NCBI GenBank assembly: GCA_964390265.1
Contig: CAYMHI010000004.1
Span: 922-64,921, forward strand
Length of the DNA stretch: 64,000 nt
Direction of reading: 5' to 3'
Origin: an uncultured Candidatus Saccharibacteria bacterium
Lineage (GTDB): Bacteria; Patescibacteriota; Saccharimonadia; CAILAD01; BJGX01
The position numbers and the translations under genes are program-made. The notes beneath the pieces are model-generated. The model worked only from the letters and a program-made list of their open reading frames with translations. It ran no database searches and was not told the origin of the DNA. Of this stretch, positions 18,908 to 21,727 are shown piece by piece. Each line of letters begins with the position of its first letter. Position 1 is the stretch's first letter.

Positions 18908-21727
18908 TTAGCATAGTTTGATATTCTTCATTTTTTGATGTTTCTTTAACTCGCTAACTATATTTTCTATGCGGTTATTTATTTGTTTGCCTTGGGGATT
19001 TGGACCAAAATCAAGCCACACTCTAAAACTTAATCGTTTTTTAGATTGACCACTCAACACGTCATTGGCAAACTCACTAACAAACTCCAAGCGCTTCAAT
19101 ACATCTGAGGTAGGTAAATTATCTAATAGGTCTTGCCACCATACATCGCTGGCTATCTCAATAGTAATATCTCTTTGAACTAGTTGGTAAGGCAGTGTTG
19201 GTTTAGACTTTGTAGTAGGATTGGTTAGCAAATCTGAGCTCAAGTCTACTTCGGCAAAACTAACTTTTTTACTAATTTTGTGTTCTACTAACATTTCAGG
19301 AGTAATTTGCCCAATTAAACCAACCTCTTTTTTGTCTACACAAATAGTAGCCGACCTGCCGTCTACAAAATTTTTGTTATTATTTGGCGCTATACGCATA
19401 TTCCATCCATATTTTGAGTGTAATATATAAACTAAGTTTTTGAGTAATTCTATTCCATCGCTACCAACCGTCGTAATTGCCAACTTCCACCGCTCCTGCT
19501 TACCATTCTTTTTAGTGGAAGACTTAATATAGCTTCGTGAAACTTCAAAAAACCCATACACATCTTGCCAATAGCTATTGTTGTTGGCTACAGTTTGAAT
19601 GTGGCTCATTAGCAAACTGCTACGCAAATACTCCTGTTCGATACTTAGTGGGTTCACTATTTTTAAGTTAGCACCAACTTCTGCACTCGCAGTTTGTAAG
19701 CTATTTTTGTTAACAAACGAATAAGTCATTACTTCAAACAGACCCCTACCTGCTAAAAGTTTTTTTAGCTCCATTACGCTTGGTACAAACGTATGCTCGC
19801 TGGTATCGGTCGGAGGGAGCTGGGGGAGAGTAGCCGACATATTCTCATAGCCAACTATTTTGGCCGACTCTTCGTATAGATCTTGCTCTATTCGAACATC
19901 GTCTCGCCACCACGGTGCGGTAACTGCAATAATATGATTAAAGTTATCTACATAGCGCCTTGCTCCCAAGTACCCATAATTTTGAGTAAATTCACTTAGA
20001 TCCACCTCTATCACCCCTTGCTTGCGTCTTTTTACCCACTTTTTATTACGATATTCATACTTGGCCGCCATCACCACTTTGCCCTGACCAATATAAATTC
20101 CGTTGTGTCCAACTTCTTTTTTTTGATCTAGCTTTTTCTTAATGTGGTTACCGCTATCGTCTTTTAGGTAGTAGTGATCATCTACCGAGCGCTCTATTTT
20201 GCCTTTATAAAATACTACATCGCCGGGTTTTAGGTTGCCAACCTCCACGGCCTTACCATGATTATATTGCGCCAAAGCAGTATGGCCTATATACACTCCT
20301 ATAAGCGAGTAGATATAATCTATAAGATAGGAACAGTCAAAAGCATTTGTACCATCTTGCTTATAATTAGCACCCCATTTGTATGGTTTGTCAAGATGTT
20401 TTCTGGCCTCTTTAGTAACTGAGAAATGCTCGGCTTTAAAGCCTCGCTGTTTTAGCCCCTCTATTATCTGTTTTTCGTCTAATTTTACCCCCAAAAAAGC
20501 CTCCGCTTTACGAACTCTCAAACCAATATGTTGAATCCAGGGCCAAGCATAGAGTTGATCGAATGGACCATCAATTACCTCGGCCTGGCATATAGTCTTG
20601 AACAAATAGAGGAGACGCTCGGCCGCATAAATTGGAAGGGGGAGAGGTAAGCCTTTTTCAAACCGAGCACTAGCTTCGGTACGAATACCGTGCCTAGTAG
20701 CGGTGCGGCGTATTCTAGAGCCATCAAAATTAGCTACCTCCAATACGATTTCTTTAGTGTTTTTGTCTACTTCGGTAGATTTGCCACCCATTACTCCAGC
20801 CAAACCTATTACACCACTGCTATCAGCTATCACCAAATCGTTACTACCAACTTTTCGGTCTGTATCGTCTAGGGTAGTAAGAGTTTCGCCATTCTTGGCA
20901 AATCTAACCTGCAGACTGCCTTTTAGCTTTGCGCTATCGTAAGCATGTGATGGTTGGCCAGTTTCTAGCATTACAAAGTTGGTTATATCTACAATAGGAT
21001 TAATTGGCCTCATCCCAGCAGCTTTTAAGTTTTCCACAAGCCAGTCTGGCGATTTTCCTTTTTGGCTAATTTTTAACTTTGCACTAACAAATCGCTTACA
21101 CTCTCCTGTTTCTTTTATTTTTGCAATCTCTGAGCTTTCGAAGTTGGCCTCATCGCGACTAGGTTGTACCAAAGAATTATTTGATGAGTTAGCACAAACT
21201 TCGCGGGCCAAACCCAAGATTGAGAGCAAATCGGGCCTATTGGCGGGCGTCTTAATATTCACAATATCGCCCAAATTATCTATGTCGCACAATGATATTC
21301 CAAGGGGGAGGTCAGGGTCGAGAACAGCAATACCAGAGTGATCATCTCCTCTCCCCAGCTCTCTTTCAGAGCAGAGCATACCAGCCGATTTCTCACCCCG
21401 CAACACTGCCGTTGCTATTCTGTCCCCGCTAGGTAGCACCGTACCCGGTTTGGCATAGGCTACTATCATACCTTCTCGCAAGTTTGGTGCACCACATACT
21501 ACCTTAGCTTTGGTTTTATTGTAGCTAACTTCTGCCAACCTAAGTCTATCAGCATTGGGGTGTTGCCAAACTTTCAAAACCTTGGCTGTAACTATGTGTT
21601 TATCCAGGCTGGTTGAGCGCGCTACGTCCTCCACTTCTACCTCAGTGCGTTCAAATGCCGCCACAATATCATCAGTTTTGAGCTTTTTTTTCAAATATAA
21701 GTTTATAAAGTTTACTGGAACCAACAT
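18908..21727 (-). CDS. pheT: phenylalanine--tRNA ligase beta subunit carrying an inserted NlpC/P60-like domain
   Basis: tRNA-binding, B3/4 and B5 domains and ...[19 protein letters not shown]... core are collinear with PheT. A ~165-aa insert has [25 protein letters not shown]...GHTALAQY...LKPGDVVFY...[12 protein letters not shown]. Start set at the MLVPVNF Met, 4 nt after the pheS stop (the ORF track extends 22 codons further). Confidence 0.88.
   Translation of the reverse strand: [939 protein letters not shown]

What the first reader, a model, noticed from the sequence alone, without database searches (positions are those of the whole stretch)
19922..20428. NlpC/P60 peptidase-like domain inserted inside PheT
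The pheT ORF is continuous (961 aa vs ~800 typical). Between the B5 domain (…[12 protein letters not shown]) and the conserved …[19 protein letters not shown]… block there is a ~165-aa insert. Its sequence ([25 protein letters not shown]…[11 protein letters not shown]…LKPGDVVFY…[15 protein letters not shown]) matches the NlpC/P60 signature, including the catalytic Cys (DCS) and first His (HNGIY). The third catalytic position (usually His in 'iHA') is Ala, so the domain may be altered or inactive.

A cell-wall hydrolase fold embedded in an essential aminoacyl-tRNA synthetase subunit is not a standard architecture. The next gene downstream is an L,D-transpeptidase.
Basis: seen in the sequence. 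Interest (0 to 1): 0.75.

Follow-up and report, generated by a model that had tools for sequence, protein, structure and literature searches.

The report
Cysteine-peptidase domain nested inside PheRS beta
The beta subunit of phenylalanyl-tRNA synthetase in this Saccharibacteria genome carries a complete, strongly conserved NlpC/P60 cysteine-hydrolase domain spliced into its B5 domain, and the same insertion is present in PheT from many candidate-phyla-radiation (Patescibacteria) lineages, apparently undescribed and of unknown function.

Summary
pheT (18908-21727, minus strand, 939 aa) is one continuous gene with every normal PheRS-beta domain. About 165 aa (19934-20428) replace the ~11-residue hairpin turn inside B5.

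It is not an artefact, intein or recent transfer. All 246 insert-bearing PheT sequences examined have it at the same B5 site. The named ones come from Saccharibacteria, Parcubacteria, Pacebacteria and "Patescibacteria group". Insert divergence tracks core divergence.

Cys and His are intact in 93%. Distant lineages keep a canonical Cys-His-His triad. The window's clade has Met (not Ala) at the third position, yet its insert has the lowest dN/dS in the gene (0.067).

PheRS editing residues are intact, so the insert does not replace editing. The neighbouring L,D-transpeptidase is Saccharibacteria-specific synteny only.

The most likely reading is an active cytoplasmic thiol hydrolase carried on PheRS. 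The substrate is unknown; I favour a gamma-D-glutamyl peptide amide, and a tRNA-linked ester is not excluded. I found no paper describing the architecture, and NCBI often names these proteins "C40 family peptidase".

The parts
18908..21727 (-). pheT: phenylalanyl-tRNA synthetase beta subunit, 939 aa plus stop. The longest ORF extends to 21793 (961 aa).
   Evidence: ORF. It is 100% identical to P0003. TIGR00472 pheT_bact scores 561 bits against a cut-off of 402.65. The full-length AF2 model has pLDDT 90.3. Its best Foldseek hits are bacterial PheRS beta chains at E about 1e-65.
19934..20428 (-). NlpC/P60 (C40) papain-like domain nested in B5, aa 434-598 of the 939-aa protein (HFSVTKE...YVDNFNH).
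20333..20335 (-). Codon of the catalytic Cys465, in the FDCSY motif at the N-terminus of a helix.
   Evidence: Coordinates. Cys together with His is intact in 229 of 246 insert-bearing PheT. The model helix starts at this residue. It aligns to the FDCSG Cys of Acd24020.
20105..20107 (-). Codon of the catalytic His541, in the GHNGIY motif at the start of a beta-strand.
20069..20071 (-). Codon of Met553 at the third catalytic position. This position is His in canonical enzymes and in most distant PheT inserts.
   Evidence: Alignments.
20114..20203 (-). Clade-specific sub-insertion 1 ([30 protein letters not shown]). It is modelled as an extra beta-hairpin between the GD-FF strand and the His strand.
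   Evidence: Absent in L002-type and most Parcubacteria-type inserts. Strands 91-95 and 101-105 of the model.
20015..20062 (-). Clade-specific basic sub-insertion 2 ([16 protein letters not shown]). It lengthens the hairpin after the third catalytic position.
20429..20539 (-). N-terminal half of the B5 domain, ending in the ...RGFKAE strand.
   Evidence: Alignment to E. coli PheT up to residue 435. Secondary-structure elements 399-434 in the full-length model.
19847..19933 (-). C-terminal half of the B5 domain ([22 protein letters not shown]...).
   Evidence: Pfam B5 model positions 37-67. Alignment resumes at E. coli residue 447.
20588..21100 (-). B3/B4 editing domain with the canonical editing residues conserved.
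   Evidence: Pfam B3_4 E=3.9e-62. R240, N250, H261, E330, T350 and A352 align with E. coli R244, N254, H265, E334, T354 and A356. The role of these E. coli residues is taken from my own knowledge of the Roy/Ling/Ibba studies.
21732..22724 (-). pheS (alpha subunit), immediately upstream in the same operon.
   Evidence: Pfam tRNA-synt_2d E=9.5e-90. The pheS-pheT pairing is conserved in all related loci.
17372..18850 (-). Downstream L,D-transpeptidase (YkuD plus PG_binding_4). It is a neighbour and not shown to be part of the feature.
   Evidence: Pfam. The synteny holds only in Saccharibacteria and is independent of the insert's catalytic state.

Best explanation
Shown:
- This is the organism's bona fide PheRS beta subunit. 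All canonical domains and the editing-site residues are intact.
- A complete NlpC/P60 (MEROPS C40) papain-like domain is nested in the beta-hairpin turn of the B5 'DNA-binding-like' domain.
- The insertion is old and vertically inherited. It occurs at the same site in PheT of Saccharibacteria and of distant Parcubacteria- and Pacebacteria-type lineages.
- The nucleophile Cys and the general-base His are kept in 93% of insert-bearing sequences.
- In the window's own clade the insert is the most strongly constrained part of the gene.

Inferred:
- The domain is a working thiol hydrolase in the cytoplasm that uses PheRS as its carrier. I put this at about 0.75 for the family and about 0.6 for this Cys-His-Met variant.
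- Cys465 would attack an amide or ester carbonyl to form an acyl-thioester, His541 would act as the base, and water would resolve the intermediate.
- The fold and motifs (PY-x-x-GA, D-C-S, G-D-x-x-F, H-x-G-x-Y, A-R-R) match the gamma-D-glutamyl-diamino-acid endopeptidase subgroup. My favoured substrate class is therefore a soluble gamma-D-Glu peptide, such as a peptidoglycan stem-peptide fragment or precursor, as with cytoplasmic YkfC. I put this at about 0.3.
- The B5 hairpin would then simply be a permissive, solvent-exposed insertion site.

A subclade of Saccharibacteria has lost Cys and His but kept the domain. Some structural contribution to PheRS is therefore also likely.
For: Architecture and identity:
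- Pfam hits and the split B5.
- Alignment to E. coli PheT.
- pheT_bact equivalog above its cut-off.
- AF2 models with pLDDT 94 for the insert and 90 for the full length.

Not an artefact; ancient and vertical:
- All 120 best homologs (41-100% identity) carry the insert.
- 47 of the top 150 hits in the 1.84-billion-representative search are PheT. These include lineages only 26-34% identical overall.
- Names attached to hits: Parcubacteria, Terrybacteria, Lloydbacteria, Yonathbacteria, Pacebacteria and Patescibacteria group.
- Insert identity tracks core identity, Spearman 0.72.
- There is no compositional break across the insert.

Catalytic competence:
- Cys+His are intact in 229 of 246 sequences. 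A Cys-His-His triad is present in 102 of 109 distant inserts.
- Invariant columns are the catalytic motifs.
- Cys sits at a helix N-terminus and His at a strand start in the model.
- In Cys/His-intact sequences the insert is more conserved than the rest of PheT (56% against 49%). It falls to 35% where Cys/His are lost.
- dN/dS window vs P0004 is 0.067 for the insert, 0.10 for the whole gene, 0.077 for B3/B4 and 0.13 for the CLM.

Against: - No activity, substrate or localisation data exist.
- The window's protein lacks the third polar catalytic residue (Met553).
- 17 Saccharibacteria sequences have lost Cys/His yet keep the domain. Catalysis is therefore dispensable in some lineages and a structural role may be the common denominator.
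- 20 related Patescibacteria PheT sequences, and a Peribacteria PheT, lack the insert, so it is not essential to PheRS.
- Nothing links the domain to peptidoglycan metabolism beyond fold family. The L,D-transpeptidase neighbour is lineage-specific synteny.
- Why a peptide amidase would be kept fused to PheRS across such deep divergence is unexplained. That persistence argues for some functional coupling to PheRS or tRNA.
- The insert is basic (median pI 9.0-9.4) on an acidic protein in two of three groups. This would also fit nucleic-acid contact.
Confidence: 0.55

Rival explanations
1. tRNA-linked activity. The thiol hydrolase acts in cis on a PheRS product. It could be a second proofreading or deacylase site, for example for D-aminoacyl-, N-acyl- or non-cognate aminoacyl-tRNAPhe. 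Alternatively it could be an acyl-transfer site that takes Phe onto Cys465 as a thioester and passes it to an acceptor.
For: - The fusion to PheRS persists across very deep divergence with the catalytic dyad intact.
- The insert has the strongest purifying selection in the gene.
- The insert is basic on an otherwise acidic subunit.
- Clade-specific Lys/Arg-rich hairpins are present.
- Papain-like thiol enzymes hydrolyse esters and form acyl-thioesters (general enzymology, my knowledge).
- There is a precedent for hydrolytic domains inserted in aaRSs: CP1, INS and B3/B4 (my knowledge).
Against: - The canonical B3/B4 editing residues are all conserved, so there is no obvious need for a replacement.
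- The 'mid' group of inserts is acidic, median pI 5.8.
- B5 is described as a DNA-binding-like HTH domain with no assigned role in tRNA binding or catalysis (PMC3275996).
- The fold subgroup is the peptide-amidase type, and I know of no NlpC/P60 member that acts on tRNA esters.
- I had no model coordinates to measure the distance from Cys465 to the CCA path.
Confidence: 0.2
2. Non-catalytic module. In this lineage, which lacks the third triad residue, the domain is a pseudo-peptidase kept for structure, ligand binding or protein-protein interaction, comparable to RipD-type inactive NlpC/P60 domains.
For: - Met occupies the third catalytic position in the window's clade.
- The canonical LPR motif is replaced by IGH.
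- 17 sequences retain the domain without Cys/His.
- The C-terminal GARRY and junction segments stay conserved even in degenerate inserts.
Against: - Cys and His are invariant in the window's clade and in 93% of all inserts.
- Insert conservation falls from 56% to 35% once Cys/His are lost, so intact lineages carry extra constraint beyond structure.
- dN/dS is 0.067, the lowest in the gene.
- A Cys-His dyad is sufficient in several papain-like enzymes (my knowledge).
Confidence: 0.2
3. Artefact or mobile insertion: an assembly chimera, a frameshifted gene fusion, an intein, or a recently transferred cassette.
For: None beyond the unusual length of the ORF.
Against: - The ORF is continuous and identical to an independently deposited protein.
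- The insertion site is the same in all 246 insert-bearing PheT sequences examined, from separate assemblies.
- The junctions (KAE|HFS ... NFNH|IIAV) lack intein splice residues, and there is no Hint or intein Pfam hit.
- GC content is continuous across the insert.
- Insert and core co-diverge.
Confidence: 0.01

Closest known systems
Free-standing NlpC/P60 D,L-endopeptidases: C. difficile Acd24020 (7cfl), B. subtilis LytE/CwlO, E. coli MepS/Spr, B. cereus YkfC (3h41), T. vaginalis NlpC1
   Different: - Those enzymes are separate proteins. Most are secreted and carry SH3b, LysM or coiled-coil targeting modules.
- Here the domain has no targeting module or signal peptide and is nested inside a cytoplasmic aaRS subunit.
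- The window's copy has Met instead of His/Glu at the third catalytic position, plus two extra beta-hairpin sub-insertions.
- It does not reach the cut-off of any named NCBIfam NlpC/P60 equivalog.
E. coli glutathionylspermidine synthetase/amidase (Gsp) and trypanothione synthetase
   Same: A papain-like Cys-His amidase is covalently joined to an ATP-dependent ligase in the cytoplasm. This is a precedent for a ligase and a thiol hydrolase in one polypeptide.
Hydrolytic editing domains inserted in aminoacyl-tRNA synthetases: CP1 of LeuRS/IleRS/ValRS, INS of ProRS, B3/B4 of PheRS
   Same: A hydrolase domain is inserted into, or appended to, an aaRS polypeptide and conserved over wide phylogenetic ranges.
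   Different: The folds and catalytic chemistry are unrelated, as none of those is a papain-like thiol enzyme. The canonical B3/B4 editing site is still intact in this protein. No evidence shows that the insert sees tRNA.
Catalytically inactive NlpC/P60 domains, such as mycobacterial RipD
   Same: This resembles the 17 Saccharibacteria PheT inserts that have lost Cys/His but retain the fold-forming segments.
   Different: The window's insert keeps Cys and His and is under strong purifying selection.

Membership tests
NlpC/P60 superfamily (Pfam PF00877, MEROPS C40) | Profile match above the curated threshold | tested here: met
   E=2.4e-12, 47.2 bits against a gathering cut-off of 23. The insert profile hits PDB NlpC/P60 chains down to E=1.7e-20.
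NlpC/P60 superfamily (Pfam PF00877, MEROPS C40) | Papain-like alpha+beta fold, with Cys at a helix N-terminus and His on the following beta-sheet, not circularly permuted | tested here: met
NlpC/P60 superfamily (Pfam PF00877, MEROPS C40) | Catalytic Cys and His present | tested here: met
   Cys465 (FDCSY) and His541 (GHNGIY) align with the catalytic residues of Acd24020 and others.
NlpC/P60 superfamily (Pfam PF00877, MEROPS C40) | Third polar catalytic residue (His, Glu, Gln, Asn or Asp) orienting the His | tested here: not met
   The window has Met553 at this position. Relatives have H in 132 sequences, Q in about 35 and E in about 22. The window's clade is therefore at best a Cys-His dyad enzyme.
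NlpC/P60 superfamily (Pfam PF00877, MEROPS C40) | Hydrolysis of gamma-D-Glu-diamino-acid or related amide bonds | not testable with these tools
   Requires enzymology.
Bacterial PheRS beta subunit (TIGR00472 pheT_bact) | Equivalog HMM above the curated cut-off | tested here: met
   561.3 bits against a cut-off of 402.65, in two stretches split by the insert.
Bacterial PheRS beta subunit (TIGR00472 pheT_bact) | Domain set B2 (tRNA_bind), B3/B4, B5, B6-7 (CLM) and B8 (FDX-ACB), adjacent to pheS | tested here: met
   FDX-ACB is weak by sequence (23.4 bits, below the 31.1 cut-off) but folds confidently in the full-length model. pheS lies directly upstream.
Bacterial PheRS beta subunit (TIGR00472 pheT_bact) | Editing-site residues of B3/B4 (E. 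coli R244, N254, H265, E334, T354, A356) | tested here: met
   All six are identical in the alignment to 3pco_B. The list of residues comes from my memory of the published mutagenesis.
Intein | Cys/Ser/Thr at the N-terminal splice junction, His-Asn at the C-terminus followed by Cys/Ser/Thr, and a Hint fold | tested here: not met
   The junctions read KAE|HFS and NFNH|IIAV. There is no Hint or intein Pfam hit. The fold is NlpC/P60.
CHAP and LRAT/PLAAT branches of the papain-like NlpC/P60 clan | Closest structural or sequence similarity lies with those branches | tested here: not met

The most novel reading that the evidence does not exclude
The NlpC/P60 domain would be a previously unrecognised enzymatic activity of PheRS, conserved across many Patescibacteria lineages and functionally coupled to aminoacylation. 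One possibility is a thiol-based second hydrolytic or proofreading site acting on aminoacyl- or N-acyl-aminoacyl-tRNAPhe. Another is a Cys-thioester relay that diverts activated Phe or a peptide into cell-wall or peptide metabolism. Either would be a new class of aaRS-embedded catalysis and a lineage marker of episymbiotic ultra-small bacteria.
Probability: 0.18. Interest if true: 0.88.

Novelty: new variant of a known kind. Interest (0 to 1): 0.68.

Why it matters
PheRS is essential and among the most conserved enzymes of translation. Catalytic domains from unrelated pathways nested inside bacterial aaRSs are rare. Here a cell-wall-hydrolase-type cysteine enzyme has been kept inside PheRS beta, with its catalytic residues intact, across several major Patescibacteria lineages. 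These organisms have minimal genomes in which retained sequence is usually functional.

Three consequences follow:
- It points to an unknown cytoplasmic activity, possibly linking translation with peptide or peptidoglycan salvage in obligate episymbionts.
- It offers a simple lineage marker, and a handle (an active-site Cys) for chemical probes in organisms that are hard to study.
- It explains a recurrent annotation error. Full-length PheT proteins are named 'C40 family peptidase' or 'PheT-related protein' in public records, which could make genomes appear to lack pheT.

The question is directly testable with recombinant protein.

Tried and rejected
- **Word-index search with the insert alone.** It returned only two weak free-standing NlpC/P60+SH3 proteins and missed even the identical PheT. 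This is a sensitivity limit of that tool for a short domain query, not evidence of rarity. The full-length query and the exhaustive profile search corrected it.
- **'Insert compensates for a degenerate editing site'.** Rejected, because all six canonical B3/B4 editing residues are conserved.
- **'Functional link to the downstream L,D-transpeptidase'.** Rejected as evidence. The rmuC-trpS-pheS-pheT-LDT block is conserved in Saccharibacteria whether or not the insert keeps Cys/His. Parcubacteria-type loci have other neighbours, a Peptidase_C39_2 gene or gyrB.
- **Intein, frameshift, chimera or recent transfer.** Rejected.
- **AFDB fold search.** The library was unavailable.
- **Organism names for long-contig homologs.** Mostly uninformative, so I could not establish whether cultivated strains such as TM7x carry the insert.
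- **Literature.** Eight full-text searches found no description of the architecture. One paper notes only that B2 is missing in many CPR PheRS beta subunits (PMC5370408). Subscription-only literature was not searchable.
- **Position of B5 relative to tRNA.** I could not obtain model coordinates, and the M. tuberculosis PheRS-tRNA paper did not use the B-domain names I searched for.
- **Net charge of the insert.** Suggestive of nucleic-acid contact in two groups but acidic in the third, so inconclusive.
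Full report
**What is in the sequence**

A single ORF runs from 21793 to 18908 on the minus strand. Homologs and an identical database protein (P0003, 939 aa) start at the Met at 21727. That start lies 4 nt after the pheS stop. The longer 961-aa reading would overlap pheS by about 60 nt. I therefore use 939-aa numbering.

Pfam finds every domain of a bacterial PheRS beta subunit: tRNA_bind, B3_4, B5, the catalytic-like module and FDX-ACB. 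It also finds NLPC_P60 at E=2.4e-12, 47 bits against a gathering score of 23. Only the second half of the B5 model (positions 37-67) is matched after the insert, so the insert lies within B5.

Aligned to E. coli PheT (3pco_B), residues 28-430 match 28-435 and residues 603-869 match 447-725. About 170 residues thus replace the ~11-residue turn of a B5 beta-hairpin.

NCBIfam's pheT_bact equivalog is passed at 561 bits against a cut-off of 402.65. No named NlpC/P60 equivalog is reached.

**Is the insert really an NlpC/P60 domain?**

An AlphaFold2 model of the insert, built from a 55-sequence alignment, has mean pLDDT 94 and pTM 0.89. The Cys lies at the first residue of a helix and the His at the start of a strand. 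Short strands at the two ends of the modelled segment are consistent with the B5 hairpin.

A profile of the insert aligns FDCS with FDCSG, and the His strand with SHVGIYIGNGDMIHAS, of Acd24020. This places the window's Met553, not an Ala, at the third catalytic position.

The full-length model has pLDDT 90.3, with the insert at 86-96 in context. It matches bacterial PheRS beta chains at E about 1e-65.

**Not an artefact, and not confined to this genome**

Two Saccharibacteria MAGs from the species-representative genome set share the insert and the gene order. All 120 best homologs in the 5.8-billion-protein collection carry an insert at the same place. They are 41-100% identical and come from NCBI, JGI, ENA and Logan assemblies.

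I ran an exhaustive HMM search of 1.84 billion cluster representatives with the insert profile.
- It found 62 proteins below 1e-30.
- 47 of the top 150 are PheT proteins.
- Ten of the most distant (26-34% identical overall) were scanned with Pfam. All ten have NLPC_P60 splitting B5 at model position about 34-36, with or without the N-terminal tRNA_bind domain.

A further search seeded with these distant sequences returned 100 more insert-bearing PheT clusters. Where a name is given, they are Parcubacteria, Terrybacteria, Lloydbacteria, Yonathbacteria, Pacebacteria or 'Patescibacteria group'. The same search returned 20 related PheT of 674-721 aa without the insert, one of them named Minisyncoccales. 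A Peribacteria PheT and a Bacteroidota PheT also lack it.

Pairwise identity in the insert tracks identity in the PheT core (Spearman 0.72). GC content is continuous across the insert. Both fit an old insertion inherited vertically with occasional loss.

Several NCBI records name these full-length PheT proteins 'C40 family peptidase' or 'phenylalanine--tRNA ligase beta subunit-related protein'.

**State of the catalytic site**

| Group | Insert-bearing sequences | Cys+His intact | Third position |
|---|---|---|---|
| Distant (Parcubacteria-type) | 109 | 109 | His in 102 |
| Intermediate | 18 | 18 | His in 11 |
| Saccharibacteria | 119 | 102 | Q 35, E 20, H 19, M 16, T 10, D 2 |

In total, 229 of 246 insert-bearing PheT keep Cys and His. 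The distant group also keeps the usual LPR motif. The window belongs to the Met group, which also has two extra hairpin sub-insertions, both Lys/Arg-rich.

Seventeen Saccharibacteria sequences have lost Cys and/or His and the PY-x-x-GA motif, but keep the C-terminal part of the domain. Most of them are 871-885 aa long.

Among Cys/His-intact sequences the insert is more conserved than the rest of PheT (56% against 49% identity to the window). In the degenerate ones it falls to 35% while the rest stays at 47%.

In the window's own clade, Nei-Gojobori dN/dS against the 88%-identical P0004 gene was computed per region, with dS about 0.6 and so not saturated:

| Region | dN/dS |
|---|---|
| Insert | 0.067 |
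| B3/B4 | 0.077 |
| Whole gene | 0.10 |
| CLM | 0.13 |
| B8 | 0.16 |

The insert has the lowest value in the gene. The domain is therefore under strong constraint even with Met at the third position.

**What it probably does**

Shown: a complete PheRS beta subunit with an intact editing site, carrying a nested p60-type thiol-hydrolase fold whose nucleophile and base are conserved. E. coli editing residues R244, N254, H265, E334, T354 and A356 are all matched.

Inferred: an active cytoplasmic Cys-His hydrolase. The protein has the normal PheT N-terminus and no signal peptide by direct reading.

The fold subgroup and motifs point to gamma-D-glutamyl peptide amides. Cytoplasmic YkfC, which recycles peptidoglycan peptides, is the nearest functional analogue; this comparison rests on my own knowledge. 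For organisms that scavenge most building blocks this is plausible, but nothing here tests it.

The neighbouring L,D-transpeptidase does not help.
- The rmuC-trpS-pheS-pheT-LDT order is conserved throughout Saccharibacteria, including a lineage with a degenerate insert.
- It is absent in Parcubacteria-type loci.

The main rival is a tRNA-linked activity. For it: the unexplained persistence of the fusion, the basic charge of the insert on an acidic subunit (median pI 9.0-9.4 against 5.8-5.9 in two of three groups), and the basic hairpins. Against it: the intact canonical editing site, the acidic intermediate group, and the description of B5 as a DNA-binding-like domain with no assigned tRNA role (PMC3275996).

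A purely structural role fits the degenerate lineages. It does not fit the extra constraint seen where Cys and His are kept.

**Comparison with what is known, and novelty**

The domain is a member of the NlpC/P60 superfamily by sequence and predicted fold. In this window it fails the third-residue criterion. The protein is a member of bacterial PheT.

What is new is the combination: a catalytic papain-like domain nested in B5 and conserved across several Patescibacteria lineages. The closest analogies are Gsp synthetase/amidase (a ligase plus a papain-like amidase in one chain) and the inserted editing domains of other aaRSs. Neither is homologous in arrangement.

Eight full-text searches found no description of the architecture. 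One paper notes only the frequent loss of B2 in CPR PheRS beta subunits (PMC5370408). Precomputed Pfam annotations and NCBI product names show the architecture is visible in databases, so 'undescribed' means in the searchable literature only.

I rate it a new variant of a known kind, with interest 0.68. The anatomy and distribution are solid. The function is open and directly testable.

Noticed in passing
window 23119-24117: An AT-rich stretch of about 1 kb (GC 0.26-0.34) with no ORF over 77 aa lies between the small membrane-protein gene upstream of pheS and trpS. A gene-free gap occupies the same position in related loci (L001 1609-3012, L006 2619-4017). On the minus strand it holds a near-consensus promoter-like site (24065-24037, TTGACA-17-TACAAT with TG) and two terminator-like hairpins (23904-23874, 23533-23515). 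Rfam finds nothing, even at E<=1.
   Followed up: partly
window 41790-42179 (-) and 59608-59998 (-): A tmRNA gene (tag peptide ANTLMRNLVNAVRTPSFAPAYA) and a class A bacterial RNase P RNA. Both are full-length Rfam matches.
   Followed up: no
window 14373-17338 (-); L006 9232-12078; L007 9168-12010: A small Pro/Gln-rich protein and an 833-aa VirD4/TraG-like ATPase (DUF8128 plus T4SS-DNA_transf) follow the L,D-transpeptidase. The rmuC-trpS-(gap)-pheS-pheT-LDT-small-ATPase block is conserved across Saccharibacteria down to 43% PheT identity.
   Followed up: partly
window 21728-21793: The longest pheT ORF (961 aa) begins 66 nt upstream of the start used by all homologs and overlaps the end of pheS. 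The 939-aa start at 21727 is the likely real one.
   Followed up: yes
P0100, P0105-P0112, P0114, P0116-P0118, P0120, P0122 (Saccharibacteria PheT, 871-885 aa); example locus L007 5001-7625: A subclade keeps the B5 insert but has lost the catalytic Cys, the His and the PY-x-x-GA motif. Its insert identity to the window falls to about 35% while the rest of PheT stays at about 47%. This looks like a natural 'catalytically dead' control group.
   Followed up: partly
L008 5177-5905 (Lloydbacteria MAG GCA_016214545.1) and many Parcubacteria-type PheT (P0188, P0208, P0221 and others): In some insert-bearing lineages PheS is only 242 aa, without the N-terminal coiled-coil domain that binds tRNA. PheT there also lacks the N-terminal tRNA_bind (B2) domain. 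Whether loss of these tRNA-binding parts correlates with the basic NlpC/P60 insert was not tested.
   Followed up: no
database records behind P0078, P0301, P0342, P0360, P0369, P0385, P0391, P0273: Full-length or partial PheT proteins are named 'C40 family peptidase' in NCBI records because of the insert. One cluster (P0231) has members attributed to 'Candidatus Aenigmarchaeota archaeon'. This is probably a mis-binned bacterial contig, since the protein is a bacterial-type PheT with B8.
   Followed up: no
P0123 (1183 aa), P0124, P0151, P0153: The top non-PheT hits to the insert profile are proteins made of 3-9 tandem NlpC/P60 domains. Their high scores are sums over the repeats.
   Followed up: no
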